DNA of 64,000 nt from Candidatus Eiseniibacteriota bacterium (GTDB lineage Bacteria; Eisenbacteria; RBG-16-71-46; JABDJR01), in NCBI GenBank assembly GCA_963768615.1, contig CAVYIE010000005.1, forward strand, positions 343,821 to 407,820, written 5' to 3'. Positions 1,054 through 40,669 of the stretch are shown here, piece by piece. The notes under the pieces were generated by a model. That model was not told where the DNA came from, did no database searches, and worked only from the letters and a program-made list of their open reading frames with translations. The first letter of the stretch is position 1, and each line of letters begins with the position of its first letter. The position numbers and the translations under genes are program-made.

Positions 1054-1701
1054 CTAGTCCGAGGCCCCCGCGTAGGCGCGCTTGAGCCCGCCCCAGCTCG
1101 CCCGCTCCACCGGCACCACGTCGGCCACGGTGATCCGGAAGGCGAAGTCGGTGATGGCGTCGGCGGCCCAGGTGGTGTCGCCGTAGGCCCGGCGCCAGGA
1201 ATCCCCCTCGGCGTACCCGGCATCGTCCCCGGAGCCGGCGAGGATGACGTAGGTGCTGGCGGCCTCGGTGCTGGCCGGATCCTCCATGGAGAGCGCGTAG
1301 CTGGAACCCGCCTGGAGCCGGGGGCTGTCGCCGGCGAACGCGAAGACCACCGGATCGTAGCCGTCCACCTGGGTCATGGAGGCGGGGAAGTCCTCGCTGT
1401 AGATGGGTTCGCCGCCGGGCGTCCCGTCCTGCACCGCGTAGAGGGAGAGCCGGAGCGGATGGTCGTGGTCGCTGACGCGCCCCACCCGGAAGGTGGCCGT
1501 CTCCAGCCGGCCGGAGGCGGTGGCGACGAAGGTCTGGCAGCGTGCGTAGGAGAACGAGGTGCCGCCGAATCCGGCGTAGGCGTTGAGCGGGGCGTCGAGA
1601 CCCCACTCCGCGGCGGTGCCGGAGGCGGTGGCGGGGGCGGCGGGAACGAGACCGGCGGCCAGAACGGCGGCCGCGGCGGCGAGCAGGGTGAGGGATCGCA
1701 T
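1054..1701 (-). CDS. Secreted hypothetical protein (216 aa) with cleavable signal peptide and a conserved C-terminal tag ...VADVVPVERASWGGLKRAY
   Basis: Internal ATG at 1701 gives MRSLTLLAAAAAVLAAGLVPAAPATASG (signal peptide). The long upstream extension in the ORF track is Pro/Gly/Arg-rich junk. The C-terminus matches that of the CDS at 11294..12262. Confidence 0.6.
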   Translation of the reverse strand: MRSLTLLAAAAAVLAAGLVPAAPATASGTAAEWGLDAPLNAYAGFGGTSFSYARCQTFVATASGRLETATFRVGRVSDHDHPLRLSLYAVQDGTPGGEPIYSEDFPASMTQVDGYDPVVFAFAGDSPRLQAGSSYALSMEDPASTEAASTYVILAGSGDDAGYAEGDSWRRAYGDTTWAADAITDFAFRITVADVVPVERASWGGLKRAYAGASD

Positions 1702-2440
1702 GAGGGTCTCCTTCAGTCGAGTGGGTGGGGGAGAACGGTCGTCCGTCCACCCGCAATGCGGGAAATCCGGGGGGGATGCGCAGTCCCGGGACCGAGGTTC
1801 GTCCGAGGGCGGCCCTGGGGCAGGTTCCCCGCATCCTGGCTGAAATCCACCACGATGGCAACCCGTTGTGCGGTGGGTGCTTGTGGCGACAGACACCCCG
1901 GGGTGGGGTTCCTTCCCCGGGGACCTGCGGTGCTTTCCCCCGGGAGGGCCGCCGTGCGGGCCGAAGCGGCACCACGCCCCCTGGAATCGCAACCCATTGT
2001 GGGGAGATGATTTGCCCCCCGGGCTCGCCCGTCCGCCCCCGAATGGCACGCCTCCTGCTCTCTCTGATGAGCGTACGCCCTCGCAAGGGGATGCGCCGAG
2101 ACCCGGCGCAGCGGAATCGCCCGCCGGAGTGAGACGTGGAGCCGGCCCTCTCCAGTCCCCCTCCTCCTCCTCGCAAGGTTTCGCGTTTCGCGACGGCGGG
2201 CGGTCCCTTCCCCGCGAGCGGCGACCCGGCTTGGCGGCCGGAAACTGAGACTCCGTGTTCCCCTGACAGCGCCCCTAGGTCCCTTTTTCGGCCGCCAGTT
2301 CTTCGAGAGAGCCCGTCCGTTGCAGCGCGGGGTCCGAACCGGGCCCGGGTGGTCCTCCTCCCCACCCGGGCCCTCTCCTTGCCCCCGGCACGCCCTCCCG
2401 CTCTTGGCCATCCGCCCCGGGGCCTTCCCGGTGTTGTACC

Positions 2441-2545
2441 CGGGTGCGCATTCTTCTTGGTCCACGGCCTTGGATTTCTCTGGATCGGCGGGCGTTCCCC
2501 GTGGAACAACCCTGTGTTCGACTTGGCGCCCGATACGGCCGGTGT
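2441..2545. repeat. Copy 1 of a ~105-bp element containing a GTACCCGGGTGCGC palindromic core and TTGGATTTCTCTGGATCGGCGGGCGTTCC
   Basis: Near-identical second copy at 2786..2890 (about 85% identity by eye). It shares its CCCGGG-centred palindrome with the repeats at 52.3-52.6 kb and a site at 19911. Confidence 0.6.
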
Positions 2546-2585
2546 TTTCGTGCGGTCGCAGCCCTCCCCGCGAACGACGAGGCAA

Positions 2586-2700
2586 TCTGGCCGGCGGCGG
2601 GCCGAAGCGCCGAAGGCGCGAGGGGGCCCCGCGCCGGCCAGAGCGAGCCGGTAGAACGATCCGGCGGATCGTTCCGGCGAGCGCTGCCGAGGAATCGCGG
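2586..2700. repeat. Single reverse-complement copy of the 97-bp tandem-repeat unit found at 51765..52185, including the unit's 3' junction sequence
   Basis: cgcgagggggccccgcgccggccagagcgagccggtagaacgatccggcggatcgttccggcgagcgctgccgaggaatcgcggggcgg is the reverse complement of ccgccccgcgattcctcggcagcgctcgccggaacgatcccccggatcgttctaccggctcgctctggccggcgcgggtccccctcgcg with 2-3 mismatches. Upstream, ggcgggccgaagcgccgaaggcgcg is the reverse complement of the array terminus cgcgccttcggcgcttcggcccgcc. Confidence 0.7.
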
Positions 2701-2785
2701 GGCGGAACGGCCCCGCGAGCGGATCGCGGGCCCGCGATACACAGTGCGAGCGAAGCCCGCGGAGCGGGCCGCGACGGTGCACCGG

Positions 2786-2890
2786 GTTACCCGGGTGCGC
2801 GTTTTTCTTGGCCCCTGACCTTGGATTTCTTTGGATCGGCGGGCGTTCCCTGGGGAGCAGCCCTGAGTTCGAGATGGCGCCCGGCGCCCA
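2786..2890. repeat. Copy 2 of the ~105-bp GTTACCCGGGTGCGC element
   Basis: See 2441..2545. The two copies flank the inverted 97-bp unit. Confidence 0.6.
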
Positions 2891-2913
2891 TCGGCAAGGC
2901 CGCAGCCGCCCCG

Positions 2914-4611: not shown

Positions 4612-4659
4612 CCCGGTAACAAATTACGACCCCGGGATCCGCCGCTTCAATCTTGCCGC

Positions 4660-4740
4660 TTGACCGCCCTACCGCCCGCGGGTAATCTTTTGAACCGTTG
4701 TTCAGATTTTGAATGGTTATTCAAAGGAGTCTCTTTGTCC
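4660..4740 (+). promoter_or_regulatory. Putative sigma70-type promoter (TTGACC-18-TAATCT) followed by two adjacent palindromic operators, TGAACcgttGTTCA (4691-4704) and TTGAATggttATTCAA (4709-4724), immediately upstream of the TetR gene
   Basis: Perfect inverted repeats read directly from the sequence. This is the usual place for a TetR autoregulatory operator. Confidence 0.5.
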
Positions 4741-5397
4741 TCTGATTCCGCCGCCTCCCGCCGCGCCTCGCGCCGTACCGCGGCCCGGAAGAGCCAGCGC
4801 CGGGAGATCCTGGCCGCGGCGCTGGCCCTCTTCGCACGGAACGGATACGAGCGGACCTCGGTCCACGAGGTGGCGAAGCGGGCCGGGTTCAGCGTGGGCC
4901 ATCTCTACAACCTGATCGGCAACAAGCGCGCGCTCTACGATGCGGTGCTGATCCAGGAGGGAGAGGCGCTGCTGGAGGTGGTCCAGCGGGCGACGGCCCC
5001 CGCCGTGGGGCGGGGCCTCGACCGGGCCGACCGGATGATCGACGCCGTGCTCGACTTCTTCGCCGGGCACCGCGACTTCTTCCAGATCTTCCTGAACGAG
5101 ACCGGCGGCGTGCCCGAGACCGCCAACGCGCGGTTCAGCGAGGAGAGCCTCCGGCTGAAGCAGGCCATCGACGAGACCGCCCGCGCCGTGTTCGTCGACG
5201 GCGTGGCCGACGGCAGCTTCGTGGCCGTCGACCCGGACGAGATCCACGGCGTGGTCGGCAACGTGGTCAACGGATTCGTGGTCCGCTGGGTCCTGGCCGG
5301 CGGTCCTGGAGACCTTCGGGACAAGGCGGCGCTCATCCGGCGGATCCTCTGGCGGGGCATCGCCGACGACGACGCATCGAGGAGAAACGCTCAGTGA
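4735..5397 (+). CDS. TetR/AcrR family transcriptional regulator (likely repressor of the downstream RND efflux operon)
   Basis: HTH segment ILAAALALFARNGYERTSVHEVAKRAGFSVGHLYNLIGNKRALY. The tracked ORF start at 4660 coincides with the promoter/operators, so the TTG at 4735 (AAGGAG RBS at 4724-4729) is the more likely start. The stop overlaps the next gene (GTGA). Confidence 0.8.
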   Translation: MSSDSAASRRASRRTAARKSQRREILAAALALFARNGYERTSVHEVAKRAGFSVGHLYNLIGNKRALYDAVLIQEGEALLEVVQRATAPAVGRGLDRADRMIDAVLDFFAGHRDFFQIFLNETGGVPETANARFSEESLRLKQAIDETARAVFVDGVADGSFVAVDPDEIHGVVGNVVNGFVVRWVLAGGPGDLRDKAALIRRILWRGIADDDASRRNAQ

Positions 5398-6824
5398 AAG
5401 CACTCACCTTCCGCCCACCCCGGCGCCCGAGGATCCGGATCCCCGGCCTGCTCGCGCTCCTGGCCCCGATCCTCCTGGCCGCCGGCACCGCCGGCCCTGC
5501 CGGGGCTGCCGGAGCCGCCCCGGGAGACACCGCGGCGGCGGACACCCTGTATCTCTCCGTGGACGGCGCGGTGGACCTGGCCCTGAACCAGGGGGAGGCG
5601 GCCCAGCTCGCGCGCGAGGACGTGCGCATCGCCGAGGCCCAGAAGGGGGTGGTGCTGGCCAACGCCCTTCCCAAGCTGGATTTCAACGCCTCCTACAACC
5701 GCAATCTGAAGAAGCCGGTGATCTTCTTCCCCGACTCCACCGGCGGCTCCCAGTCCATCACCATCGGCGAGGACAACGCCTACCAGGCCACGCTGTCCCT
5801 CCGCCAGCCGCTCTACAGCTCCGGCCGGGTGGGAGCGGCCTACAGCGCCTCCAAGCAGCGGGCCCGGGCGGCGGCTCTGTCCGGCGACGCCGCCGCCTCG
5901 GACATCGCCATGCAGGTGAAGCAGGCCTACTACCAGGCCCTGCTCGCCCGGGCGCAGGTGAGGATCGCCCGGCAGTCCCTGGATCAGGCCCAGCGGCGGC
6001 AGGACGAGATCCAGGCCAAGGTGGACAAGGGGGTGACGGCGCGGTTCGACCTCCTGCGGGCCCAGGTAGAGGTGGCCAACCGGAAGCCGGCCCTGACCCG
6101 GGCCCGGAACGGGGCCGCGGTGGCCCTGGAGGCGCTGAAGCGGGCGGCGGGGCTCCCCCTGGATCGCGGGGTGGCCCTCACCGACACCCTCGGCTACCAG
6201 CCCATGCCGCTTACCCGGGAGGCGGCGGTGGAGGAGGCCCTCGACCACCGGCGTTCCCTGGAGGCGGCCAAGCTCCAGGCCGAGGCGGCCCGGAACCAGC
6301 TGAAGGCCCAGTCGGCCAACGACCTTCCCCTCCTCTACCTGGACGGCAACTACACCTGGCAGGGCCAGACCTCGGACGGGCTCATCCCCGGGAACAAGGA
6401 GACCGCCCAGAGCGCCGCGGTGGGACTGACCCTGACCTGGCCCATCGTGGACGGCTGGGAGAACAGGGCCCGCACCAGGCAGGCGGCGGCCCAGGCCGAG
6501 ATCGCCCGGTTGAACCTGAGACAGCTGGAGGAGGGGATCCGCCTCCAGACGCGGAGCGCCTGGGCCGACGTGCGCTCCATCGCCGAGGAGATCCAGGGGG
6601 TGGAGGAGTCGGTGCGGCTGGCCCGGGAGGCCTATCGGATCGCCGAGGTGCGCTACGACAGCGGCCTCTCCACCCAGCTCGAGCTCCTGGACGCCGAGCT
6701 GGCCCTGACCCAGGCCCGGGTGAACCGGAGCGAGACCCTGTACCGGTACCAGACCGCCCTGGCCCAGCTGGAGAACGTGATGGGACGCGGTCCGGCCCTG
6801 AATGCGACCGGAGGTGAGCGATGA
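5394..6824 (+). CDS. Outer membrane efflux protein (TolC/OMF family)
   Basis: 476 aa, signal peptide. OMF-family outer-membrane efflux channel signature. Translationally coupled to TetR upstream and the MFP downstream. Confidence 0.85.
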   Translation: MKALTFRPPRRPRIRIPGLLALLAPILLAAGTAGPAGAAGAAPGDTAAADTLYLSVDGAVDLALNQGEAAQLAREDVRIAEAQKGVVLANALPKLDFNASYNRNLKKPVIFFPDSTGGSQSITIGEDNAYQATLSLRQPLYSSGRVGAAYSASKQRARAAALSGDAAASDIAMQVKQAYYQALLARAQVRIARQSLDQAQRRQDEIQAKVDKGVTARFDLLRAQVEVANRKPALTRARNGAAVALEALKRAAGLPLDRGVALTDTLGYQPMPLTREAAVEEALDHRRSLEAAKLQAEAARNQLKAQSANDLPLLYLDGNYTWQGQTSDGLIPGNKETAQSAAVGLTLTWPIVDGWENRARTRQAAAQAEIARLNLRQLEEGIRLQTRSAWADVRSIAEEIQGVEESVRLAREAYRIAEVRYDSGLSTQLELLDAELALTQARVNRSETLYRYQTALAQLENVMGRGPALNATGGER

Positions 6825-8026
6825 AGAAGGTGTGGATCGGCGCGGCGGTGGTGGTCCTCGCGGTCCTGGTGTTCCTCCGCATCCAGGCCCGGAGCGAGAA
6901 GGCCCCGGCCCGGGGGATCGAGGAGATCCAGGCCGAGCAGGGGGTGCCGGTGGACGCGGTCACCCTGGCCCGCGACACCCTGGTGGTGACCCGGCAGGTG
7001 GCGGGCAACGTGGAGGGCCGGCGCCAGACCGACGTCAGCGCCGCCGGCGACCGCAAGGTGGACAAGGTCTTCGTGCGGGAGGGCCAACGGGTGGGCCGGG
7101 GGGACCGGCTCATCTCCTACGACATCCGTACCGCCCCCGACGCGGTGGCCCGGCTCCAGCAGAGCCAGGCCGCCTACGACAACGCCCAGCGCCAGGTGAA
7201 CCGGCTCCAGCCCCTCTACGAGCAGGGGGCGATCAGCGAGGCCGATCTGGACAACGCCAGGACCCAGCTCGAGGTGGCCCGGGCCAACCTGCGCGACGCC
7301 CGGCTCCAGGTGGAGGAAGTCTCGCCCATCGACGGCGTGGTCACCCTGGTCGCGGTCACCCCCGGGGAGTCCGTGACCGGAGGCCAGACCGTGGCCCAGG
7401 TGGCCACCCTGGACTCGGTGCGCGTGTCCGCCGAGGTCGCCGCGGATGCGGTGGCCCAGCTGCACACGGGGGCGAAGGTGCGGGTGGTTCCGGGCTCGTC
7501 CTCCGGCACCGAGGTGGAGCACCCCGCGGCCGGCGGCCCCGGGAACCCCGGCTACGAGGGCCGGTTGACCCGGGTCTCCCTGGGCGCCGACCCCGGCACC
7601 CGGCTCTACGAGGTGGAGGCGGTGCTGGCCAACCGGGACCGGAGCTTCCTGCCCGGCCAGTTCGTGACCTTGGCCGTGGTGACCCGGCGGATCGACGACG
7701 CCCTCAGCGTGCCCAGGATCGCCTTCCTCGGCGAGCAGGAGGTGGTGCCGGGGGCGGAGCAGGAGGTGTTCACGGTGGCCGACGGCACCGCCCATCGCCG
7801 CAAGGTCACCCTGGGCGCGGTCAACGAGGACCGGGCCCAGGTCACGGACGGCCTCCAGGCCGGCGACGTGGTGGTGGTGTTCGGGGCCAACCGGCTCCGG
7901 GAGGGGGACAAGGTGCGGTTCCACCGGCTGGACGGGAAGATGATGGAGGCCCCGGCGGCGTCCGGCGCGCCGGCCTCGGGACCCGGATCCCCCCAGGGGA
8001 CCGGTGAAGCGGGGGCCGGCCGGTGA
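6821..8026 (+). CDS. RND efflux membrane fusion protein (HlyD/AcrA family periplasmic adaptor)
   Basis: 401 aa. N-terminal TM/signal. Coiled-coil region (RLQQSQAAYDNAQRQVNRLQPLYEQGAISEADLDNARTQLEVARANL) typical of periplasmic adaptors. 4-nt overlaps on both sides. Confidence 0.85.
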   Translation: MKKVWIGAAVVVLAVLVFLRIQARSEKAPARGIEEIQAEQGVPVDAVTLARDTLVVTRQVAGNVEGRRQTDVSAAGDRKVDKVFVREGQRVGRGDRLISYDIRTAPDAVARLQQSQAAYDNAQRQVNRLQPLYEQGAISEADLDNARTQLEVARANLRDARLQVEEVSPIDGVVTLVAVTPGESVTGGQTVAQVATLDSVRVSAEVAADAVAQLHTGAKVRVVPGSSSGTEVEHPAAGGPGNPGYEGRLTRVSLGADPGTRLYEVEAVLANRDRSFLPGQFVTLAVVTRRIDDALSVPRIAFLGEQEVVPGAEQEVFTVADGTAHRRKVTLGAVNEDRAQVTDGLQAGDVVVVFGANRLREGDKVRFHRLDGKMMEAPAASGAPASGPGSPQGTGEAGAGR

Positions 8027-11000
8027 TCCTCTCCAAGATGGCGGTCCGCCGCCCCGTTCTCACCACCGTGATCGTGCTGATCTTCCTGGTCCTGGGGATC
8101 TTCGCCTACCTGCGGCTGGTGGTGGACCTCTTTCCCAACGTGGAGTTCCCCTACGTCACCGTGACCACGGTGTACCCGGGGGCGGGACCGGAGGAGGTGG
8201 AGAGCCAGGTCACCAAGAAGCTCGAGGACGCGGTCTCGACCCTGGCCAACATCAAGGAGATGACCTCCACCAACATCGAGGGGCTGTCCCTGGTCATCAT
8301 CCAGTTCGAGCTGGGGGTCGATCCCGACCTCGTGGCCATCGACGTCAAGGAGAAGGTGGACGCGGTGGTGAACGACCTGCCCGAAGACACCAAGAAGCCG
8401 GTGGTCGGGAAGTTCGACGTCAACGCGCTCCCCATCATGAACCTGGCCCTGACCGGGCCCCAGTCCGGGCGCGAGCTCTACCGGGTGGCCGACAAGCAGC
8501 TCAAGGACGAGCTCTCCCAGGCGCCGGGGGTGGCGTCGGTGAGCATCGTGGGCGGGAACGAGCGCGAGATCCACGTGGATGTGGACCCCGACAAGCTGGC
8601 CGCCTACGGTCTGGATGCCAACCAGGTGGTCTCGGCCATCGGCCGTGAGAACCTGAGCATCCCCGCCGGCCTGGTCCAGCGTCCCGATCAGGAGTACACG
8701 CTGCGGGTGCTGGGCGAGTTCACCCACCTGAACCAGCTCCGGCGGCTGCCGGTGAACCTGCCCGGGTCGGGACGGACGGTGCGCGTGGAGGACGTGGGCC
8801 GGGTGGTGGACAGCTCGGTGGAGCAGCGGAACCTGGCCGAGGCCGACGGCCGGAGCGCGGTCGCCCTGATCATCCAGAAACGGACCGACGCCAACACCGT
8901 GGAGACCGCCGGCGCGGTACGGAGCCGCGTGGCCGCGCTGAACCGGCAGCTTCCCGAGGGGATGAAGATCGAGGTCATCCGCGACAATTCGACCTTCATC
9001 CGCCAGGCCGTGCACGACGTGCTGGTCAACATCCTCATCGGCATCCTCCTCACCACCATCATCCTGTACCTGTTCCTGCACAACTTCCGCACCACCCTGA
9101 TCGCCGCGGTGGCCATGCCCACCTCCATCATCGCCACTTTCCTGCTCCTGGACTTCGCCGGGTTCACCATCAACGTGATGACCCTGCTCGCCCTGGGCAT
9201 CTCCATCGGGGTCCTGGTCACCAACGCCATCGTGGTCCTGGAGAACATCCAGAGCCACATCGACGTCCACGGGGAGGATCCGCCCACCGCGGCCCAGCGG
9301 GGCACGGACGAGATCGCCATCGCGGTGGCGGCCACCGCCGGTACCAACGTCGTGGTCTTCACTCCCATCGCGTTCATGGGCGGGATCGTGGGCCAGTTCT
9401 TCATCCAGTTCGGGCTCACCGTGGTCTTCGCCACCCTGTTCTCCCTCCTGATCAGCTTCACCCTGACCCCCATGCTGGCGGCCAAGGTCCTGAAGTCCAA
9501 GGAGGAGCAGGAGAAGCGGGTGGCCGGCCACCGGTGGTTCCTGGCCCGCCTGGAAAGGCCGTTTCTCAAGCTGGCCGGATTCTGGGAACAGGGATACCGC
9601 CGGGTGGAGGACGTCTACCGCCGGAGCGTAGCCTGGTCGCTGAAGCATCGGGCCTGGACGCTGGTCATCGTCACCCTGTTGTTCCTGACCAGCTTCGTTC
9701 CCTTCTTCTTCAGGCTGGTGGGGTCCGAGTTCCTCCCCCAGTCGGACGCCGGATTCATCCAGGTGGCGGTCACCCTGCCTGCGGGGAGCACCCTGGAGCA
9801 GACCCACGAGACCCTCACCGAGATCGAGGACATCGCGCGGGAGAGCGTTCCCGAGATCGAGGCCGTCCTCCTCACCGTGGGTGGAGACAACCAGGGGGTG
9901 GAGAAGGGCGACCTCACGATCCGGCTCACTCCCGCCGCCGACCGGAAGCGGGGGATCCAGCAGATCATGAACGATCTCCGCGTGCGTCTGGCCGGCCTTC
10001 CCGCCGCGGACATCCAGGTCCAGGTCGCCTCCCAGTTCGGGAGCGGCCAGCAGGACATCGAGGCCGACGTGCTCGGTCCGGACCTCGACACCATCCGTAC
10101 CATCGCCGACAGCCTCCAGAACGCCATGTCCGCGATCCCGGGACTGGTGGACGTCAGCTCCAGCGCCAAGCCCGGCAAGCCCGAGATCGTCTTCCGCCCC
10201 GACCGGGAAGAGATGTCCGACCGGATGCTGGCCCTGGCCGGGGTGGGGGGCGAGCTGCGCACGCTGTACGAAGGGACGGTGGCCTCCAAGTACCGCGAGG
10301 AGGGGGACGAATACGACATCCGGGTGCGCATGATGCCCTCCGACCGCAGCCGGCTCCAGTCCATCCCCCAGGTGCGCCTTTCGGGATCGAATGGCCTGGT
10401 GCCTCTGGACGCCCTCGGGGACCTGGGCCGCCGGCGGGGCCTGGCCGAGATCACCCGCAAGAACAAGGAGCGCATGGTCTCCGTCGGCGCCAACATCGGC
10501 TCGGGCAGCCTGGTCCAGAAGGTGAACGCCATCCAGGCCCGGGTGGCGGCCATGAACCTTCCCCCCGGCTACCGCGTGGAGTACGCGGGCCAGTACGAGG
10601 ATCTCGGGGACACCTTCGTGCAGATCCTCCAGGCCTTGATCCTGGCCATCGTGCTCACCTACCTGCTCCTGGCCGCGATCCTGGAGTCCTTCGTCCATCC
10701 CTTCACCATCATGTTCACCCTGCCCCTGGGCCTGGTGGGGGTGGTGTGGTCGCTGGTTCTGACCGGAGCCACCATCAACATCTTCTCCCTCATGGCGGTG
10801 GTGATGCTGGTGGGGATCGTGGTCAACAACGCGATCCTCATCCTGGACCTGGCCGGACAGCTCCGCGCCAAGGGGATGAACGCGAGGGAAGCGATCGCCG
10901 AGGCCGCCCCGGGCCGGCTCCGGCCCATCGTGATGACCACCCTGGCCATCCTGGCCGGCATCCTCCCCCAGGCCCTGGGCGGCGCCGGTGCGGCCTACAC

Positions 11001-11148
11001 CGTGGCCATGGCGGTGGTGACCATGGGAGGGATCCTGGCCTCCGGCGCGCTGTCGCTGTACCTGATCCCGGTTCTCTACACCCTGTTCGACCGGCTCACG
11101 GCGCAGGGACGCGCCGACCGGCGGAAGGCGAAGGAGGCCGGCGCCTAG
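8023..11148 (+). CDS. RND multidrug efflux transporter permease (HAE1/AcrB family)
   Basis: 1041 aa, 12-TM RND topology; start may be ATG 8038 (MAVRRPVLTTVIVLIFLVLGIFAY...). Confidence 0.9.
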   Translation: MILSKMAVRRPVLTTVIVLIFLVLGIFAYLRLVVDLFPNVEFPYVTVTTVYPGAGPEEVESQVTKKLEDAVSTLANIKEMTSTNIEGLSLVIIQFELGVDPDLVAIDVKEKVDAVVNDLPEDTKKPVVGKFDVNALPIMNLALTGPQSGRELYRVADKQLKDELSQAPGVASVSIVGGNEREIHVDVDPDKLAAYGLDANQVVSAIGRENLSIPAGLVQRPDQEYTLRVLGEFTHLNQLRRLPVNLPGSGRTVRVEDVGRVVDSSVEQRNLAEADGRSAVALIIQKRTDANTVETAGAVRSRVAALNRQLPEGMKIEVIRDNSTFIRQAVHDVLVNILIGILLTTIILYLFLHNFRTTLIAAVAMPTSIIATFLLLDFAGFTINVMTLLALGISIGVLVTNAIVVLENIQSHIDVHGEDPPTAAQRGTDEIAIAVAATAGTNVVVFTPIAFMGGIVGQFFIQFGLTVVFATLFSLLISFTLTPMLAAKVLKSKEEQEKRVAGHRWFLARLERPFLKLAGFWEQGYRRVEDVYRRSVAWSLKHRAWTLVIVTLLFLTSFVPFFFRLVGSEFLPQSDAGFIQVAVTLPAGSTLEQTHETLTEIEDIARESVPEIEAVLLTVGGDNQGVEKGDLTIRLTPAADRKRGIQQIMNDLRVRLAGLPAADIQVQVASQFGSGQQDIEADVLGPDLDTIRTIADSLQNAMSAIPGLVDVSSSAKPGKPEIVFRPDREEMSDRMLALAGVGGELRTLYEGTVASKYREEGDEYDIRVRMMPSDRSRLQSIPQVRLSGSNGLVPLDALGDLGRRRGLAEITRKNKERMVSVGANIGSGSLVQKVNAIQARVAAMNLPPGYRVEYAGQYEDLGDTFVQILQALILAIVLTYLLLAAILESFVHPFTIMFTLPLGLVGVVWSLVLTGATINIFSLMAVVMLVGIVVNNAILILDLAGQLRAKGMNAREAIAEAAPGRLRPIVMTTLAILAGILPQALGGAGAAYTVAMAVVTMGGILASGALSLYLIPVLYTLFDRLTAQGRADRRKAKEAGA

Positions 11149-11293: not shown

Positions 11294-12262
11294 ATGTACC
11301 GGCTCGCCCTCGTGGTCCTCGTCGCCCTCCTCGCCACGGCCCCGGCCTTACCCCGCCCCCTGTCCGCCCAGGAACCGGCCCTGGTCGATCTCTGGCCCAA
11401 CGGGGACGGCACGCAGTGGGAATACGCCTACAGCTACACCGAGGAGGCGTGGCTCGGCGGCTCCAGCGACGCCTCCTTCCCGGTCCGCTACAGCTTCGAC
11501 GGCATGTACCGGCTCCCGGATGGACGTTGGACCCAGAACCTGGCCGTGGCGGTCCCGGTTGTTTCCCCCGTTGCCCGCGAGGGGGCCTCCGCCGCCCCCG
11601 CCTCCCTCGGCGACCCCCTGCTCCGGACCCTGTGGCGGGTGCGCCCCGATCTCCGGCCCGGCCTGCTCCAGCGGGCGGCCGCCCTGGATGCGGGGGACTG
11701 CATCCGCGACGCGGCCCCGAACCTCAATGCCCTCCTCCTCCACGACGCCTGGTTCCTGAAGACGGAGGAAGAGATCGCGGCCTGGGGATGCGACCTCGAC
11801 TCGGGCGCCACCACGCTGAAGCGCTGGTTGTGGCTGACCGCCGACCTAGGCCTCGGCCACACCTTCGGCATGCAGCTCGTTCCCGACCTCGCCGACGACG
11901 TGTTCCTCCACGGAACCCCGGCGGCCTGGGAGGAGGTGTCCACCCTCGCCGGCACCTTCACCGGCTGCCTGCGGGTGGACTACGTGATCGACTACGGCAC
12001 CAGCCTCTGCACCGCGCCGGGGGAGACCGGGACCGGCAGCTACCGGGCCGAGACCCGGGGGTCCGTGTACTACGCCCCGGGGGTGGGACCGGTCTACAGC
12101 ACCGAGGAGTTCCTGCCCTTCCTGGACGTGACCGGCTCCTGCGACATCCCCGCCGAAGGGGTGGGCCAGGTGGCCTCGCGGACCACCCTCGATCTCACCC
12201 TGGTCGACGTGGTCCCGGCCCGGCGCACTTCCTGGGGCGCGCTCAAGTCACGGTACGAGTGA
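11294..12262 (+). CDS. Secreted hypothetical protein (322 aa) with signal peptide and the same C-terminal tag as 1054..1701 (...LVDVVPARRTSWGALKSRYE)
   Basis: Internal ATG 11294 gives MYRLALVVLVALLATAPALPRPLSAQEP (signal peptide). The body is not obviously similar to the 1054..1701 protein, but the last roughly 20 residues are. Confidence 0.6.
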   Translation: MYRLALVVLVALLATAPALPRPLSAQEPALVDLWPNGDGTQWEYAYSYTEEAWLGGSSDASFPVRYSFDGMYRLPDGRWTQNLAVAVPVVSPVAREGASAAPASLGDPLLRTLWRVRPDLRPGLLQRAAALDAGDCIRDAAPNLNALLLHDAWFLKTEEEIAAWGCDLDSGATTLKRWLWLTADLGLGHTFGMQLVPDLADDVFLHGTPAAWEEVSTLAGTFTGCLRVDYVIDYGTSLCTAPGETGTGSYRAETRGSVYYAPGVGPVYSTEEFLPFLDVTGSCDIPAEGVGQVASRTTLDLTLVDVVPARRTSWGALKSRYE

Positions 12263-14104
12263 CGCCGTCTCCGCCCAGCGGAGCCACTCGGCCAGCACGA
12301 CCAGGGTCCAGACCGCCCGGCTGTGGTCCGCGCGCCGGTGGGCATGCTCCTCGAACAGCTCCAGCGCCGCGCTCCGGTCGATGCCGGCCCGCTCCAGGGA
12401 CGGGTCACCCACCCGGTCCCGGGCCCAGTCGTGGAGATCCTCCCGGAGCCATTGGGCCAGGGGAACGGAGAGGCCCCGCTTGCGGCGGCGCACGATCCGG
12501 CGGGGGAGGTACCGCTCGGCGTAACCCTTGAGGAAGTGCTTGGTGGTGAAGCGCCGGACCCGGTCCCGGGGGGCGAGCCGGGCCGCGAACTCCATCACGT
12601 TCCGGTCCAGGTAGGGCGCCCGCAGCTCCAGGGCCGAACTCATGCTCGCGCGGTCGGCCTTGGTCAGGAGTCCCTCGGCCAGGGAGGTCTCCAGGTCGTG
12701 CCGCTGCACCGTGTCCAATAGCCGCGGCAGGGTATCCATCTCCGGTTCGGGGACCGCCACCCCGAGCCGCTCGAGAAGCGCGGGAGGGAGGTTCGAGGTC
12801 CAGAGCAGGTGGCGGTCGCCGCCGGCCATCTCCGCCCCGGCCACGAATTTCTTGAGCAGGAAGGAGATCGAGACCTTCTTGTCGCTCGGGGGCCAGGCCT
12901 CCACCATGCGGCGGACCGGAGCCTTGAACCAGCCGGGCAGGCCCGCGTAGCGCGCGCTCATCAGTGCGCCCAGGTAGGTCGGATAGCCGCCGAAGAGCTC
13001 GTCCGCCCCCTCCCCGACCAGGGCCACCTTGGCGTCCTCGGCCGCCCGGCGGGCCAGAAGGGCGGTGGGAATCCAGGCGGGATCGGCCAGGGGCTCTCCG
13101 ACCCGGGCGATGAGCCGGGGAAGCTCCACCTGGAAGTCCTCCGGCCGCACCCAGACCGGGACCTGGGGCAGCCCCAGGTGGCCGGCCACCGCGGCCGCCG
13201 CATCGCCCTCGTCGTAGGAGGCCTCGGAGAAGCGCAGGGTATAGGCGGGGAAGACGACCTGAGGGCGGACCGTGCGGGCCACCGCGGCCACCAGGGAGGA
13301 GTCGATCCCCCCGCTCAGGAACACCCCGAAGGGCACCTCGTTCTCGGTCTGGTGGAGAAGAACGTCCCGGAGCACCCGGTCGAACTCGTCCGCGGTGGGG
13401 GGCGGGCCCGCGGCGGCTCCCACCGGCCACCGCCACCACCGGTCCACGCGGGCCGTTTCCGAATCGTTTTCGAAGACCACCCGGTGGGCCGGGGGCACCT
13501 TGCGGACCCCGGAGAACGGTGACGCGGGGGCGGTGAAGCTGCCGAAGCGCAGGTACCCGGCCAGCGCCGCCCGGTCCACGGTGAGCGGGTCGAGACCCTT
13601 TCCGACCAGGGCGCAGATCTCGGTGGCGAAGGAGATCGTCTCGCCGCCGCGATGGTAGAAGAGGGGGCGCTCGCCGGCCCGGTCCCGGACCAGCAGCAGC
13701 CGGCGGCGGCGGGGATCGTGGAGGGCGATGGCGAAGGCGCCGGTCAGGGCCTCGGGGAAACGGTCGCCGAGCTCCAGGTAGAGCGCGGGAATGACGGCCA
13801 CGTCGGATTCGCCCCGCACCGCATGACCCCGTCCGGCCAGGAATTCGCGAAGCTCGCGGTGGTTGTCGATCTCGCCGTTGCAGATCACGGTGACGCCGCT
13901 TCCGGGATCGCTCACCGGTTGGGCGCCGCCGTTGAGACCGCGAATGGCCAGGCGGGTGATGCCCAGCACCGCTCCGTCCCGGCCTCCCACCCCGGTCTCG
14001 TCGGGACCCCGGTGGGCGAGGGCGGACATCATTCCCTGGACGCGGGCCCGGTCGCCCGCGACGGCGGGCCCGGCGTACCGGACCACACCGCAGACGCCGC
14101 ACAC
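12248..14104 (-). CDS. asnB: Asparagine synthetase (glutamine-hydrolysing), AsnB family
   Basis: N-terminal MCGVCGVV (Cys2 nucleophile of class-II glutamine amidotransferases), the AsnB-type SGGIDSS PP-loop, and the usual 618-aa length. Confidence 0.85.
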   Translation of the reverse strand: MCGVCGVVRYAGPAVAGDRARVQGMMSALAHRGPDETGVGGRDGAVLGITRLAIRGLNGGAQPVSDPGSGVTVICNGEIDNHRELREFLAGRGHAVRGESDVAVIPALYLELGDRFPEALTGAFAIALHDPRRRRLLLVRDRAGERPLFYHRGGETISFATEICALVGKGLDPLTVDRAALAGYLRFGSFTAPASPFSGVRKVPPAHRVVFENDSETARVDRWWRWPVGAAAGPPPTADEFDRVLRDVLLHQTENEVPFGVFLSGGIDSSLVAAVARTVRPQVVFPAYTLRFSEASYDEGDAAAAVAGHLGLPQVPVWVRPEDFQVELPRLIARVGEPLADPAWIPTALLARRAAEDAKVALVGEGADELFGGYPTYLGALMSARYAGLPGWFKAPVRRMVEAWPPSDKKVSISFLLKKFVAGAEMAGGDRHLLWTSNLPPALLERLGVAVPEPEMDTLPRLLDTVQRHDLETSLAEGLLTKADRASMSSALELRAPYLDRNVMEFAARLAPRDRVRRFTTKHFLKGYAERYLPRRIVRRRKRGLSVPLAQWLREDLHDWARDRVGDPSLERAGIDRSAALELFEEHAHRRADHSRAVWTLVVLAEWLRWAETASLVP

Positions 14105-14105: not shown

Positions 14106-14966
14106 TCAGGCTCGCGGCTTGGCAGCCACCTCGGCGCATTCCAGGATGCGGTCGAGCCGGAAGTCGCGGTCCTCCTTGCGGAGATGGCAGTAGGCCCGCA
14201 TGTTCATGCCCCGGATGTCCTTGGGGGTGACGCGGCGGCGGGTCTGGCCCCCGCTTCCCCGGTAGGCGATCTCGATGTCGTGATGGGCCTCGATGGCCCG
14301 CCGGATATGCTCGACCACCAGGGAGAAGCTGTTGTCCTCGCCGCGGCCGGGGCCGCCGATGGAGAACTGGTAGGAGGTGCGATAGCCGGGGATGCGGGAG
14401 ATGTCGTCCTGGCCCCGCTTGTGGTACTCGTCCAGGAACTTGCGCAGCACGTGCCAGGCCATGCGGGCGTCGTCCAGCGCCCGGTGGGCGTGGGGCCCCT
14501 CGATGCCCATGCGGTTGGCCAGGATCCCCAGGGTGAACGGGCCGGGATCGTCCTGGGCCCGGGCCAGCTCCAGGGTGTCCATGACCGGGTTCCCGAGCTG
14601 GGTCCGGCCCAGCTTCTCCAGCTTGTACTGGAGGAAGGCCATGTCGAACTCGGCGTTGTGGGCCACGATGATGGCGTCGTCGAAGAGGGGCAGCACGTCC
14701 TCCACCAGGTCCTCGAACCGGGGCTTGCCCTTCAGCATCCCGGAGCTGATGCCGCTGACCTGGGCCGCGGCGGGATCCATCTCCCGCCCGGGGTCCACCA
14801 GCTCGCTGTACTCCCCGACGATCTCGCCTCCCTCCACCCTCACCAGGCCGATCTCCACGATCTCGTCCCCCACCGCCGGGTACAGGCCGGTGGTCTCGAA
14901 GTCGAGAACCGCGAAGGGCTTCTGAAGAAGGGGGTTGGGAAGGGCGCTGAAGAGATCGATGGACAT
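14106..14966 (-). CDS. DnaQ-like DEDDh 3'-5' exonuclease fused to a C-terminal WYL-like domain
   Basis: Exo motifs I (AVLDFETTGL), II (VAHNAEFDMAFL) and III (HRALDDARM). The C-terminal roughly 90 aa (IEIAYRGSGGQTRRRVTPKDIRGMNMRAYCHLRKEDRDFRLDRI) follow the WYL-domain pattern. 2-nt gap to asnB downstream (operon). Confidence 0.7.
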   Translation of the reverse strand: MSIDLFSALPNPLLQKPFAVLDFETTGLYPAVGDEIVEIGLVRVEGGEIVGEYSELVDPGREMDPAAAQVSGISSGMLKGKPRFEDLVEDVLPLFDDAIIVAHNAEFDMAFLQYKLEKLGRTQLGNPVMDTLELARAQDDPGPFTLGILANRMGIEGPHAHRALDDARMAWHVLRKFLDEYHKRGQDDISRIPGYRTSYQFSIGGPGRGEDNSFSLVVEHIRRAIEAHHDIEIAYRGSGGQTRRRVTPKDIRGMNMRAYCHLRKEDRDFRLDRILECAEVAAKPRA

Positions 14967-15112
14967 GAGGGTTTCCTTGGACGTGCAGGACGGGACTTGG
15001 GCGACGTTCCATTCTAGCCCACCGGGGAGGGCGGGGAAAGCCCGGCCCCGCGGCGGCCGGCCGCCCGGGTGGTATACTTCCCGGCCCGGACCCGACCATC
15101 GAGGACCCAGCC

Positions 15113-15496
15113 ATGTTCGAGATCACCAAGACCGCCGAGTTCGCCGCCGCCCACTCCCTGCGGGACTACGACGGCCCCTGCGCCCGGAACCACGGCCACA
15201 ACTACAGGTTGGAGCTGACCGTCCGCGGCGGGGTGCTGGACGACCAGCGCATGCTGATCGACTTCACCGCCCTGGACCGGGTGCTCGGCCCCTTCCTGGA
15301 GCGGGTGGACCATCGCAACCTGAACGAGGTCCCCCCCTTCACCGAGGTGAACCCCACCGCGGAGGCGGTGGCGGCCTGGATCCACGCCGAGCTGGCCCGG
15401 GAGATCGGCGCCGCCTCGGGGGGGCGGGCCCGCCTGACCGCGGTCCGGCTGTGGGAAACTCCCGACGCCTGTGTTACGTATACCCCCGACGACTGA
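15113..15496 (+). CDS. queD: 6-carboxy-5,6,7,8-tetrahydropterin synthase (QueD / PTPS family)
   Basis: 127 aa. CxxxHGH motif context (CARNHGHNYRLE) and QueD-like length. Confidence 0.9.
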   Translation: MFEITKTAEFAAAHSLRDYDGPCARNHGHNYRLELTVRGGVLDDQRMLIDFTALDRVLGPFLERVDHRNLNEVPPFTEVNPTAEAVAAWIHAELAREIGAASGGRARLTAVRLWETPDACVTYTPDD

Positions 15497-15589
15497 CCCG
15501 TCCCCGGATCGGCCCCCCCCGGCATCCCGATCCTCCTGCAATCCCCCGGCCTGACCTGAACCGAGCCGGCTCCCCGAGCCCGCCGGGAG

Positions 15590-26700: not shown

Positions 26701-26864
26701 GCCTGGACCACGGTGTTGATCTGGACCTGGACCGGGGTGGTGTCGGGGAAGGCGTCCACCCGGAGCCCGGCCAGGGCCCGCGCTCCCAGGACCGCCAGCA
26801 CCGTGAACACCAGCGCCACCGCCAGCCGGTGGCGCACCGCGACTTCAACCAGACGTTCGAGCAT
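23763..26864 (-). CDS. czcA: Heavy-metal efflux RND transporter (HME-RND, CzcA/CusA family)
   Basis: 1033 aa. [53 protein letters not shown]... matches the CzcA/CusA N-terminus. Confidence 0.88.
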
Positions 26865-26933
26865 GTCGGCTCCTGGATCCGGAGGGGAACGGGGGCGGGA
26901 CCGCCGGACCGCCGGCGGGGGAAACGGCCGGGC

Positions 26934-38305: not shown

Positions 38306-38356
38306 TCCGTGTCCGCCGCCCGAGACCCCGGCGCGCGGCCGGGGCCCGGGACGGAA

Positions 38357-40285
<1,929 letters not shown>

Positions 40286-40606: not shown

Positions 40607-40669
40607 GCGTTCCTTCCGCTCATACCGCCGGGCGGGCGCTTCCCATCCCGGAGGGTCTCGGGTTCGCGG

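What the first reader, a model, noticed from the sequence alone, without database searches (positions are those of the whole stretch)
1054..1701. Conserved roughly 20-residue C-terminal tag shared by two otherwise dissimilar secreted proteins
The 216-aa protein here ends ...ITVADVVPVERASWGGLKRAYAGASD. The 322-aa protein at 11294..12262 ends ...LTLVDVVPARRTSWGALKSRYE. Both have cleavable signal peptides and the mature bodies do not align, yet the tail consensus (I/L)T(V/L)xDVVPxxRxSWGxLKxxY is shared. A short conserved C-terminal motif on unrelated secreted cargo is how sorting/anchoring signals look (T9SS CTDs, PEP-CTERM, GlyGly-CTERM and the like). This one matches none of the named families I can recall, so it may mark a lineage-specific export or surface-attachment pathway.
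Basis: seen in the sequence. Interest (0 to 1): 0.5.

Follow-up and report, generated by a model that had tools for sequence, protein, structure and literature searches.

The report
Uncatalogued C-terminal tag on secreted proteins
Two unrelated secreted proteins in this window end in the same 17-residue tail, which also ends hundreds of otherwise unrelated secreted proteins in the uncultured phylum Eisenbacteria and its relatives; this looks like an undescribed protein sorting or anchoring tag whose machinery is unknown.

Summary
Both genes are genuine (GC3 0.93-0.94), have SPase-I signal peptides and do not align outside the tail. A profile built only from independent carriers ranks them first and second of 1,003 window ORFs (E 3e-7 and 2e-5).

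The conserved core is P-[VT]-P-[VAT]-[ER]-x-[ST]-[ST]-W-G-x-[ILV]-K-[AS]-x-Y-R-COOH.
All are MAGs, mostly Candidatus Eisenbacteria.
- The carriers form 76 BLAST-unrelated body clusters.
- About 80% have signal-peptide-like starts, against 28% of other ORFs.
- 19 of 20 occurrences not selected for a stop codon lie within 7 residues of a stop.

No Pfam or NCBIfam model, PDB sequence or paper covers the tail. AF2 places it outside the fold, as a low-confidence linker plus terminal segment. In the protein-2 family, tail and N-terminal lipobox are mutually exclusive. Other carriers share bodies with T9SS-CTD proteins.

The tail lacks the transmembrane helix and Arg cluster of sortase/exosortase-type signals, and it is not a T9SS CTD. 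My best reading is a lineage-specific docking or anchoring tag bound by an unknown envelope partner. The function and machinery are inferred, not shown.

The parts
1054..1701 (-). Protein 1 CDS (215 aa plus stop). Secreted protein with an orphan body and the C-terminal tag.
   Evidence: ORF and translation. GC3 is 0.94. The only database match among 5.8e9 proteins is itself. No Pfam or NCBIfam family passes its cutoff.
1624..1701 (-). Predicted SPase-I signal peptide of protein 1 (residues 1-26, MRSLTLLAAAAAVLAAGLVPAAPATA|S).
   Evidence: Read directly from the sequence: basic n-region, hydrophobic core and an A-x-A-type site. The cleavage site is inferred, not tested.
1057..1119 (-). C-terminal tag of protein 1 (residues 195-215, VVPVERASWGGLKRAYAGASD). 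The core is VVPVERASWGGLKRAY, followed by an atypical 5-residue extension.
   Evidence: Motif coordinates. Scores 20.5 bits, E 1.8e-5, against an independent tag profile. An extension of this length after the Tyr (5 residues) is seen in 3 of 257 tails.
11294..12262 (+). Protein 2 CDS (322 aa plus stop). Secreted protein with a YmcC-like/LolA-like half-barrel body and the C-terminal tag.
   Evidence: ORF. GC3 is 0.93. 21 close homologues all carry the tag. AF2 model has pLDDT 84. Foldseek matches 3fzx and 4fvs at E 2e-5 to 9e-5.
11294..11368 (+). Predicted SPase-I signal peptide of protein 2 (residues 1-25, MYRLALVVLVALLATAPALPRPLSA|Q).
   Evidence: Read from the sequence and from the family alignment, where the conserved mature start LWPNxDG follows shortly after. 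The cleavage site is inferred.
12209..12259 (+). C-terminal tag of protein 2 (residues 306-322, VVPARRTSWGALKSRYE).
   Evidence: Motif coordinates. Scores 26.2 bits, E 2.8e-7, against an independent tag profile. In the AF2 model it lies after the last body strand (295-305), as a low-pLDDT linker 307-312 and a short terminal helix 313-321.

Best explanation
The tail is a portable, lineage-specific C-terminal targeting or anchoring tag of about 17 residues: P-[VT]-P-[VAT]-[ER]-x-[ST]-[ST]-W-G-x-[ILV]-K-[AS]-x-Y-R-COOH. It sits on proteins exported by the Sec pathway in Candidatus Eisenbacteria and related FCB-group lineages.

Proposed mechanism:
1. The protein crosses the inner membrane by Sec and loses its SPase-I signal peptide.
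2. A proline-rich extended linker holds the terminal ten residues away from the folded body.
3. This terminal segment, including its free carboxylate, is bound sequence-specifically by a dedicated envelope protein that has not been identified. Binding is probably as an added beta-strand.
4. Binding tethers or hands over an otherwise soluble protein at the outer membrane or cell surface.

On this reading the tag does the job that an N-terminal lipid anchor or a T9SS C-terminal domain does for homologous cargo.

Shown: the tag exists, is strictly C-terminal, is modular, sits on many unrelated signal-peptide proteins, lies outside the fold and matches no catalogued family.

Inferred: that it sorts or anchors, that a protein partner reads it, that it binds as a strand, and that it probably stays on the mature protein.
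For: Portability: 129 carriers from the first 120 GTDB loci, against 9-35 chance matches expected in the whole collection. 114 of those 129 also fit the consensus at positions the search pattern did not constrain. 125 carriers form 76 unrelated body clusters. An exhaustive HMM search adds 120 representatives, 114 of them with the motif within 8 residues of the C-terminus.

Strict C-terminal position: 19 of 20 occurrences not pre-selected for a stop lie within 0-7 residues of a stop. 81% of tails have exactly one residue after the Tyr.

Secreted cargo: 98/123 carriers have signal-peptide-like starts, against 178/643 other ORFs. Only about 3-6% are true lipoproteins.

Outside the fold: AF2 model of protein 2. 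Nothing is conserved upstream of position -9.

Anchor interchange: in the protein-2 family, all 22 tagged members lack a lipobox, and all 8 untagged members with complete N-termini have one. The body has a lipoprotein-like YmcC/LolA-like fold. Eleven carriers share bodies with T9SS-CTD proteins, best E 1e-37. NHL-propeller carriers resemble ScyF, whose NCBIfam model is named a PEP-CTERM protein.

Read by a protein rather than by lipid: residue-specific conservation of P at -6 (94%, though this position was required by the scan pattern) and of W, G, K and Y. These figures are partly inflated by the search patterns, but the same residues are conserved in the protein-2 family and in the HMM hits. 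The sequence shows strong beta-type alternation (z 17.8) and no excess helical amphipathicity (z 1.6), and its interfacial free energy is only -0.47 kcal/mol.

Retained rather than removed: P0045 has four tandem tags and P0118 has conserved internal tags.
Against: No receptor or processing enzyme was identified. Carriers are scattered in the genome, and no non-cargo neighbour family recurs convincingly. Nothing relevant lies beside either window gene.

AF2 draws the terminal segment as a short helix, not a strand, although at pLDDT of about 50.

The lipobox/tag exclusivity may reflect a single evolutionary event separating two clades. A few carriers have both a lipobox and a tag (L030, P0045, P0118).

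The case for retention rests on two proteins.

All carriers come from uncultured MAGs, so there is no experimental localisation data at all. The two window tails lack the canonical terminal Arg.
Confidence: 0.5

Rival explanations
1. Cleaved sorting signal. The tag is recognised and removed by a dedicated periplasmic or outer-membrane peptidase or transpeptidase, functionally like PorU, sortase or exosortase. The new C-terminus is then attached to a lipid, glycan or cell-wall acceptor.
For: The tag meets five of Haft's seven published attributes of small C-terminal sorting domains: near the C-terminus, several per genome, at least three near-invariant signature residues, signal peptides on carriers, and carriers otherwise unrelated (for the criteria; for the tests). 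Its strict distance from the free C-terminus suits an enzyme active site. A PorU-type sortase homologue lies about 2 kb downstream of four tandem carriers in L037. Carriers share bodies with T9SS-CTD cargo.
Against: There is no transmembrane helix or Arg cluster to present the motif to an intramembrane enzyme; nothing follows the motif. The tandem tags in P0045 and internal tags in P0118 are hard to reconcile with a signal that is removed. The PorU adjacency is a single case, and PorU substrates are folded CTDs of about 80 residues. No candidate enzyme recurs near carriers.
Confidence: 0.25
2. Peptidoglycan tether. The near-invariant Lys in ...K-x-x-Y-R-COOH is the acceptor for an L,D-transpeptidase, as for the C-terminal Lys of Braun's lipoprotein (which ends ...K-Y-R-K); or the basic and aromatic tail binds peptidoglycan non-covalently. 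Either way the cargo is fixed in the cell wall.
For: Lys is 98% conserved next to a Y-R terminus, which resembles the Lpp C-terminus (Lpp sequence from my own knowledge). Some carriers (L030, P0045, P0118) are lipoproteins that also carry one or more tags, which is the architecture of Lpp. Tandem tags suggest binding through avidity.
Against: The Lys is five residues from the end, not terminal. Lys-to-Arg variants exist in otherwise good tags (P0005, P0012, P0117, P0156), so charge rather than the amine may be what matters. The invariant Trp-Gly and the Pro at -6 have no counterpart in Lpp. No L,D-transpeptidase gene was seen near carriers.
Confidence: 0.1
3. Generic membrane-binding amphipathic helix. 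The last ten residues fold into a short in-plane helix that sticks to a periplasmic membrane leaflet without a protein partner, like the C-terminal anchors of E. coli PBP5 and PBP6.
For: AF2 predicts a short terminal helix in protein 2 (residues 313-321) and in the low-confidence protein-1 model. The segment contains Trp, Ile/Leu and Tyr together with Lys and Arg. The tag replaces a lipid anchor in the protein-2 family.
Against: The helical hydrophobic moment is no better than in shuffled sequences (z 1.6). The summed Wimley-White interfacial energy is only -0.47 kcal/mol. Residue-specific invariance (W, G, K, Y and P at -6) is far beyond what lipid binding requires. The AF2 helix has pLDDT of about 50.
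Confidence: 0.08
4. Recognition tag for periplasmic quality control. The free C-terminus is a ligand for a PDZ-domain protease or sensor (DegS/DegP/Prc-like). It would mark the proteins for processing, turnover or stress signalling rather than for localisation.
For: The position relative to the free carboxylate is strict, and the sequence has strand-like alternation. Both fit PDZ-type C-terminal peptide recognition (general knowledge of PDZ domains).
Against: It is hard to see why about 76 or more unrelated families should conserve a degradation or sensing tag. It also does not explain why the tag alternates with lipoboxes and T9SS CTDs on homologous bodies. Tandem and internal copies do not fit strict C-terminal recognition.
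Confidence: 0.05
5. Coincidence or hidden paralogy. The two window proteins merely share a short chance match, or they are diverged paralogues.
For: None beyond the shortness of the motif.
Against: The independent profile gives E 2.8e-7 and 1.8e-5 for these two ORFs, with the next ORF at 6.6 bits. There are hundreds of carriers on unrelated bodies. The bodies do not align.
Confidence: 0.01

Closest known systems
Tripartite C-terminal sorting domains and their sortases (LPXTG/sortase, PEP-CTERM/exosortase, GlyGly-CTERM/rhombosortase, PGF-CTERM/archaeosortase, MYXO-CTERM/myxosortase)
   Same: A short signature at the extreme C-terminus, found several times in one genome, on signal-peptide proteins that share nothing else. 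The same body type (NHL propeller) carries PEP-CTERM in other lineages, as in ScyF.
   Different: There is no hydrophobic transmembrane segment and no Arg-rich cluster after the signature; the protein ends one residue after the motif. No homologous or analogous sorting enzyme was found. No NCBIfam sorting-domain model matches.
Type IX secretion system C-terminal domains (type A TIGR04183, type B TIGR04131)
   Same: A C-terminal signal on Sec-exported cargo in FCB-group bacteria. It co-exists in the same genomes and occurs on homologous bodies.
   Different: T9SS CTDs are folded Ig-like domains of about 70-100 residues. This tag is 17 residues of linker plus a terminal peptide, and has no sequence match to CTD models. 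Carriers are small (median 257 aa, against about 740 aa for neighbouring CTD proteins).
Braun's lipoprotein (Lpp) C-terminal ...K-Y-R-K peptidoglycan-attachment motif
   Same: A basic and aromatic C-terminal end (K..Y-R) on envelope proteins. A few carriers are lipoproteins with the tag at the other end.
   Different: The Lys is internal, not terminal. Trp-Gly and the Pro-rich linker have no Lpp counterpart. Lys-to-Arg variants exist. Most carriers are not lipoproteins.
Secretin S-domain / pilotin system and other short C-terminal docking peptides (for example PDZ ligands such as the OMP YxF tails read by DegS)
   Same: A short, otherwise unstructured C-terminal peptide read by a partner protein. 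In the pilotin case, this lets a non-lipoprotein ride with a lipoprotein to the outer membrane.
   Different: Those peptides are specific to one protein family, whereas this tag is shared by dozens of unrelated families. No partner is known here, and there is no sequence similarity.
C-terminal amphipathic membrane anchors (E. coli PBP5/PBP6)
   Same: A C-terminal segment that keeps a Sec-exported soluble domain at a membrane without a transmembrane helix.
   Different: The tag's helical amphipathicity is no greater than in shuffled controls, and its conservation is residue-specific rather than physicochemical.

Membership tests
Small tripartite C-terminal sorting domains (Haft criteria, 10.1101/2023.06.07.544157) | [quoted passage not shown] | tested here: met
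   148 of 149 motif occurrences in 818 kb of loci lie within 7 residues of a stop, including 19 of the 20 not pre-selected for a stop. 114 of 120 HMM hits lie within 8 residues of the end.
Small tripartite C-terminal sorting domains (Haft criteria, 10.1101/2023.06.07.544157) | [quoted passage not shown] | tested here: met
   Two in this 64 kb window. Five loci come from MAG VAR_78_metabat_282, and six carriers from MAG173-P120, among only the first 120 rows. A full per-genome count was not possible.
Small tripartite C-terminal sorting domains (Haft criteria, 10.1101/2023.06.07.544157) | [quoted passage not shown] | tested here: met
   P at -6 94%, W 100%, G 99%, K 98%, Y 96%. Part of this is imposed by the search patterns, but the same residues are conserved in the protein-2 family and in the HMM hits.
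Small tripartite C-terminal sorting domains (Haft criteria, 10.1101/2023.06.07.544157) | Strongly hydrophobic segment long enough for a transmembrane helix after the signature | tested here: not met
   81% of tails end one residue after the Tyr, and the longest extensions seen are a few polar residues. Protein 1 ends AGASD and protein 2 ends E.
Small tripartite C-terminal sorting domains (Haft criteria, 10.1101/2023.06.07.544157) | Cluster of two to five basic residues at the very end | tested here: not met
   Usually a single terminal Arg (77%), with no cluster. The window proteins end in E and D.
Small tripartite C-terminal sorting domains (Haft criteria, 10.1101/2023.06.07.544157) | Most carriers have an N-terminal signal peptide | tested here: met
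   By a crude hydrophobicity heuristic, 98/123 carriers against 178/643 other ORFs. Several of the 'no' calls are visibly signal peptides.
Small tripartite C-terminal sorting domains (Haft criteria, 10.1101/2023.06.07.544157) | Many carrier pairs share no similarity other than the signal | tested here: met
   125 carriers form 76 clusters at BLASTP E < 1e-5 with tails removed.
Small tripartite C-terminal sorting domains (Haft criteria, 10.1101/2023.06.07.544157) | A cognate sorting enzyme that co-occurs with the signal | not testable with these tools
   This needs phylogenetic profiling over whole genomes. Only 8 kb flanks were available, and no recurrent candidate was seen.
T9SS C-terminal domain (type A/B) | Match to the TIGR04183/TIGR04131-type models, or a folded Ig-like domain of about 70-100 residues at the C-terminus | tested here: not met
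   No NCBIfam or Pfam hit on the window proteins or on canonical carriers. The conserved region is 17 residues. AF2 shows no terminal domain. Classical CTDs are easily recognised in neighbouring genes.
Outer-membrane-protein beta-signal | Last strand of a transmembrane beta-barrel, ending in an aromatic residue | tested here: not met
   The last residue is Arg in 77%. Bodies are soluble folds: a YmcC-like half-barrel and NHL propellers.
Lpp-type peptidoglycan attachment | C-terminal Lys as the cross-linking residue | tested here: not met
   A terminal residue of Lys is rare (RK in 2 of 257). The conserved Lys is five residues from the end, and Lys-to-Arg variants occur.
Type I secretion C-terminal signal | Uncleaved C-terminal signal on proteins that lack an N-terminal signal peptide | tested here: not met
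   Carriers have N-terminal signal peptides.
C-terminal amphipathic membrane-anchor helix (PBP5/6 type) | Helical amphipathicity sufficient for interfacial binding | tested here: not met
   Hydrophobic moment at 100 degrees is 0.389, against 0.371 +/- 0.012 for shuffles (z 1.6). Interfacial free energy is -0.47 kcal/mol. This is a computation only; no binding was measured.

The most novel reading that the evidence does not exclude
The tag is the address label of a protein-sorting or surface-attachment pathway that has not been described, with its own receptor or enzyme. It would operate alongside T9SS in Eisenbacteria and related FCB lineages, and it would handle tens of mostly uncharacterised small secreted proteins per genome. 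It would then be a new architectural class of C-terminal sorting signal: a linker plus a terminal peptide, with no transmembrane helix and no folded domain.
Probability: 0.4. Interest if true: 0.8.

Novelty: new variant of a known kind. Interest (0 to 1): 0.62.

Why it matters
C-terminal sorting signals have repeatedly led to the discovery of new envelope machinery, including sortases, exosortases, rhombosortases, the T9SS sortase PorU and myxosortases. This tag meets the distribution criteria used in those discoveries, but its architecture differs: there is no transmembrane helix and no folded domain. Its reader is therefore unlikely to belong to a known enzyme family.

The tag marks a large secretome. 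About 90% of the carriers sampled have no Pfam domain. They belong to a widespread soil, sediment and groundwater phylum with no cultured member. A simple profile of the tag would annotate hundreds to thousands of hypothetical proteins as envelope or surface cargo. It would also give a handle for phylogenetic profiling to find the partner.

Tried and rejected
- **Indexed homologue searches.** The search with protein 1 found only protein 1 itself. The search with the tail profile found only three gene fragments, because few candidates share enough 5-mers. Two calls were lost to parameter limits.
- **Curated family libraries.** Pfam and NCBIfam gave no hit on the window proteins, on 10 canonical carriers or on 60 carriers. 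The one sub-threshold DUF3551 hit covers the signal peptide of protein 1.
- **Solved structures.** No PDB sequence matched the tail profile.
- **Literature.** Searches for the motif strings and for Eisenbacteria secretion found nothing relevant.
- **Neighbourhood enrichment over 120 loci.** Apart from T9SS-CTD cargo, the only recurrent families are housekeeping ones: ABC ATPase, ClpB, kinases, M16 peptidase and others. No processing enzyme emerged.
- **Exosortase link.** The asparagine synthase abutting protein 2 scores below the XrtA/PEP-CTERM amidotransferase cutoff (354 against 816.9 bits) and passes only the generic AsnB model. I rejected this link.
- **Amphipathic-helix anchor.** Rejected on hydrophobic moment and interfacial energy.
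- **Tag followed by a T9SS CTD.** The one internal occurrence (L004, 81 residues before the stop) is a poor-quality read-through ORF, not a fusion.
- **AF2 of protein 1 alone.** pLDDT was 45.5, so the model could not be used for fold search.
- **Source organism.** The nearest named relative of protein 2 is 43% identical, in a Candidatus Eisenbacteria MAG.
- **Genomic context of untagged protein-2 relatives.** Their lineage could not be determined.
Full report
**1. The observation**

Protein 1 is encoded on the minus strand at 1054-1701 (215 aa). Protein 2 is on the plus strand at 11294-12262 (322 aa). Both have the third-position GC bias of real genes in this 70.7% GC window, at 0.94 and 0.93. 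Both were called as genes in public assemblies.

Their N-termini read as SPase-I signal peptides: MRSLTLLAAAAAVLAAGLVPAAPATA|S and MYRLALVVLVALLATAPALPRPLSA|Q. In the six-frame translation of the whole window, the motif SWG.[LIVM]K..[YF] occurs exactly twice, at these two C-termini. Outside the tail, the two proteins have no significant similarity.

**2. More than chance, and far more than two proteins**

*The two bodies.* Protein 1's body is an orphan: among 5.8 billion sequences it matches only itself. Protein 2 has 21 close homologues (39-48% identity). All of them end ...vPvxx[ST][ST]WGrIKaaYR. Ten more distant homologues of the same body lack the tail.

*Genome scan.* I back-translated the motif as P-x4-[ST]-W-G-x-[LIVMF]-K-x-x-Y-R-stop and scanned the 185,579 GTDB species genomes.
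Chance predicts only about 9-35 matches in the entire collection.
- The loci yield 129 carrier ORFs.
- 114 of them also fit the consensus at positions -7 and -5, which the pattern did not constrain.

*Position in the protein.* I dropped the stop requirement and rescanned the 818 kb of fetched loci. Of 149 occurrences, 148 lie within 0-7 residues of a stop. Of the 20 that the pattern had not pre-selected, 19 are C-terminal. The single exception is a poor-quality read-through ORF.

*Exhaustive HMM search.* A 23-position tail profile was run against 1.84 billion cluster representatives. It found 124 proteins at E <= 1e-3, which is about the most such a short profile can reach. 114 of the 120 new proteins carry the motif within 8 residues of their end.

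*Independent test of the window proteins.* I built a profile from 114 GTDB carriers only, leaving out the window proteins and the protein-2 family. Among all 1,003 six-frame ORFs of the window, it ranks protein 2 first (26.2 bits, E 2.8e-7) and protein 1 second (20.5 bits, E 1.8e-5). The next ORF scores 6.6 bits.

**3. Anatomy of the tag**

A logo from 257 non-identical tails gives a 17-residue core. Positions are numbered from the Trp (position 0).

| Position | Residue(s) | Frequency |
|---|---|---|
| -8 | P | 51% |
| -7 | V/T | 86% |
| -6 | P | 94% |
| -5 | V/A/T | 92% |
| -4 | E/R | 61% |
| -3 | variable | - |
| -2 | T/S | 69% |
| -1 | T/S | 100% |
| 0 | W | 100% |
| +1 | G | 99% |
| +2 | variable | - |
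| +3 | I/L/V | 99% |
| +4 | K | 98% |
| +5 | A/S | 68% |
| +6 | variable | - |
| +7 | Y | 96% |
| +8 | R, then the end of the protein | 77% |

Positions -6, -1, 0, +1, +4, +7 and +8 were partly imposed by my search patterns. The same residues are conserved in the protein-2 family and in the HMM hits, which were not selected that way.

Nothing is conserved upstream of -9, apart from an enrichment of Cys: 52% of tails have one between -22 and -7. In the AF2 model of protein 2 (26-sequence alignment, pLDDT 84) it is the last body strand, residues 295-305. After it come a low-confidence linker at 307-312 and a terminal segment at 313-321, drawn as a short helix at pLDDT of about 50 and not packed on the body.

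The window's two tails are within the family range but atypical at the very end: they finish YE and YAGASD rather than YR.

**4. Who carries it**

*Lineages.* Of the 120 loci:
- 53 are titled Candidatus Eisenbacteria or Eiseniibacteriota.
- 3 are Krumholzibacteria, 2 Latescibacteria, 3 'Fibrobacteraceae' and 1 Effluviviaceae.
- 51 are unclassified 'bacterium'.
- 7 are single hits in other taxa, five of them on contigs of 2-4 kb that may be mis-binned.

All are metagenome-assembled genomes. The closest named relative of protein 2 is 43% identical, in an Eisenbacteria MAG.

*Cargo.*
- With tails removed, 125 carriers fall into 76 clusters that BLAST cannot connect.
- Carriers are small: median 257 aa, against about 740 aa for neighbouring T9SS-CTD proteins.
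- About 80% have a signal-peptide-like start by a crude heuristic, against 28% of other ORFs in the same loci.
- Only about 3-6% are true lipoproteins.
- Only about 6 of 60 full-length carriers have any Pfam domain, mostly NHL propellers plus one beta-helix.

So the cargo is mostly uncharacterised.

**5. Evidence bearing on function**

(a) *Interchange with a lipid anchor.* In the protein-2 family, all 22 tagged members lack a lipobox, and those with complete N-termini have SPase-I signal peptides. All 8 untagged members with complete N-termini have a lipobox Cys. The body resembles YmcC-like and LolA-like half-barrels, including Bacteroides putative lipoproteins (3fzx and 4fvs, E 2e-5 to 9e-5). 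This may be one evolutionary event, so it is suggestive rather than statistical.

(b) *Interchange with the T9SS CTD.* 45 of the 120 loci also encode proteins ending in the classical FlgD-Ig/T9SS-type domain. Eleven carriers, with the tail removed, align significantly with such proteins with the CTD removed; the best is 33% over 347 aa, E 1e-37. NHL-propeller carriers resemble ScyF, whose NCBIfam model is named a PEP-CTERM protein.

(c) *Physical character.* The ten terminal residues are not more amphipathic as a helix than shuffled versions (z 1.6). Their summed interfacial free energy is only -0.47 kcal/mol. They do show very strong beta-type alternation (z 17.8), with one face G-[ILV]-[AS]-Y and the other W-x-K-x-R. 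Together with the residue-specific invariance, this argues for a protein reader rather than lipid. It also fits binding as an added strand that includes the free carboxylate.

(d) *Retention.* One lipoprotein (P0045) ends in four tandem copies of the ten-residue unit. Another (P0118) is a triple repeat of a domain, each copy ending in a conserved tag. That is typical of binding modules, not of signals that are cut off. It rests on only two proteins.

(e) *Context.* Neither window gene has a relevant neighbour.
- The window is the chromosomal origin region (dnaA, dnaN, gyrB, gyrA, yidC, mnmE, mnmG) plus three RND efflux systems.
- The asparagine synthase that overlaps the end of protein 2 is a generic AsnB, not the XrtA-associated amidotransferase.
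- Across the 120 loci, no non-cargo family recurs convincingly.
- In one locus (L037), a truncated PorU-type T9SS sortase homologue (NF033707, E 9e-38) lies about 2 kb downstream of four tandem carriers. This shows that genome has T9SS, but it is a single adjacency.

**6. Best explanation and rivals**

I conclude with high confidence that this is a portable C-terminal tag on Sec-exported proteins, specific to Eisenbacteria and related FCB lineages.

The most likely mechanism (about 0.5) is this. After export and signal-peptide removal, the Pro-rich linker presents the terminal peptide to a dedicated envelope partner. Binding tethers or hands over the cargo at the outer membrane or cell surface. 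This is the same job that a lipid anchor or a T9SS CTD does for homologous bodies.

| Rival | Confidence | Main point for | Main point against |
|---|---|---|---|
| Cleaved sortase-like signal | 0.25 | Meets the Haft distribution criteria | No transmembrane segment; tandem copies exist |
| Lpp-like peptidoglycan tether through the conserved Lys | 0.1 | The K..YR end; some carriers are lipoproteins with a tag | The Lys is internal; K-to-R variants occur |
| Generic amphipathic membrane helix | 0.08 | AF2 draws a short helix | |
| PDZ-protease or sensor ligand | 0.05 | Strict distance from the free C-terminus | Does not explain the interchange with other anchors |
| Chance or paralogy | 0.01 | None beyond the shortness of the motif | Excluded |

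**7. Comparison with what is known**

Haft's published attributes of small C-terminal sorting domains (10.1101/2023.06.07.544157, Methods) give seven tests. Five are met: C-terminal position, several per genome, at least three invariant residues, signal peptides, and unrelated carriers. Two defining architectural features are not met: a transmembrane helix and a terminal Arg cluster. The tag should therefore not be filed with LPXTG, PEP-CTERM, GlyGly-CTERM or MYXO-CTERM.

It is also not:
- a T9SS CTD, because it is too short, is not a folded domain and matches no model;
- an OMP beta-signal;
- a T1SS signal;
- an Lpp-type terminal Lys.

No Pfam or NCBIfam model, PDB sequence or paper in the searchable library covers it.

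**8. Verdict**

The tag is a new architectural variant of a known kind of feature (C-terminal sorting or anchoring signals), with unknown machinery, in an uncultured phylum. Interest is moderate to high. The existence and distribution of the tag are solid, and they would let phylogenetic profiling search for a new envelope pathway. Function, partner and fate of the tag remain inferences.

Noticed in passing
window 1702-2900: About 1.2 kb with no codon periodicity lies between protein 1 and a cation-efflux gene. It contains a 96-nt direct repeat, 85% identical, at 2437-2532 and 2788-2883. There are no other copies in the window or in the fetched loci, and there is no Rfam match anywhere in the window.
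   Followed up: partly
window 31530-50957: The window spans the chromosomal replication-origin neighbourhood: gyrA (31530-34133, -), gyrB (38357-40285, -), a DciA-family gene (40286-40669, -), dnaN (40670-41794, -), dnaA (42214-43647, -), then yidC, jag, mnmE and mnmG on the plus strand (45037-50957). The intergenic stretch 43648-45036 (broken only by one unannotated ORF, 44248-44805, -) is where oriC would be expected.
   Followed up: no
window 4612-11148, 15560-19872, 23763-28505: Three separate RND efflux systems (membrane-fusion protein plus AcrB-type pump) lie within 25 kb. The first follows a TetR regulator. Protein 2 starts 146 bp downstream of the first pump.
   Followed up: no
window 12248-12262: Protein 2 and the convergent asparagine synthase gene (12248-14104, -) overlap by 15 bp at their 3' ends. 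The synthase is a generic AsnB and falls below the cutoff for the XrtA/PEP-CTERM amidotransferase model.
   Followed up: yes
window 14106-15122 (-): An RNase T-type exonuclease domain is fused to a C-terminal WYL domain.
   Followed up: no
P0045 and P0118 (proteins from the exhaustive search): P0045 is a lipoprotein ending in four tandem copies of the ten-residue tag unit. P0118 is a lipoprotein made of three repeats of a domain of about 190 aa, each ending in a conserved tag. The same body family occurs as two adjacent lipoprotein-plus-tag genes in L030.
   Followed up: partly
L037 about 5637-8000 (+): A truncated homologue of the T9SS sortase PorU (NF033707, E 9e-38) lies about 2 kb downstream of four tandem tag-carrying paralogues at L037 62-3405. 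This is a single case.
   Followed up: partly
P0051 (protein from the exhaustive search): This 653-aa 'protein' consists of repeated ASPSSWGRVHRG, RPLPGGEFIEA and LALFLGASSSR units. It looks like a spurious translation of a DNA repeat array, and it hit the tag profile by chance through SSWGRV.
   Followed up: no
L054 (GC 0.27, titled Woesearchaeota) and L059 (titled Kerfeldbacteria, 66 kb contig): Well-formed tags (…TPAVRTSWGKLKTIYR and …PVPIRRTSWGYLKSMYR) occur on contigs assigned to an archaeon and to a CPR bacterium. The causes could be mis-binning or horizontal transfer; this was not resolved.
   Followed up: no
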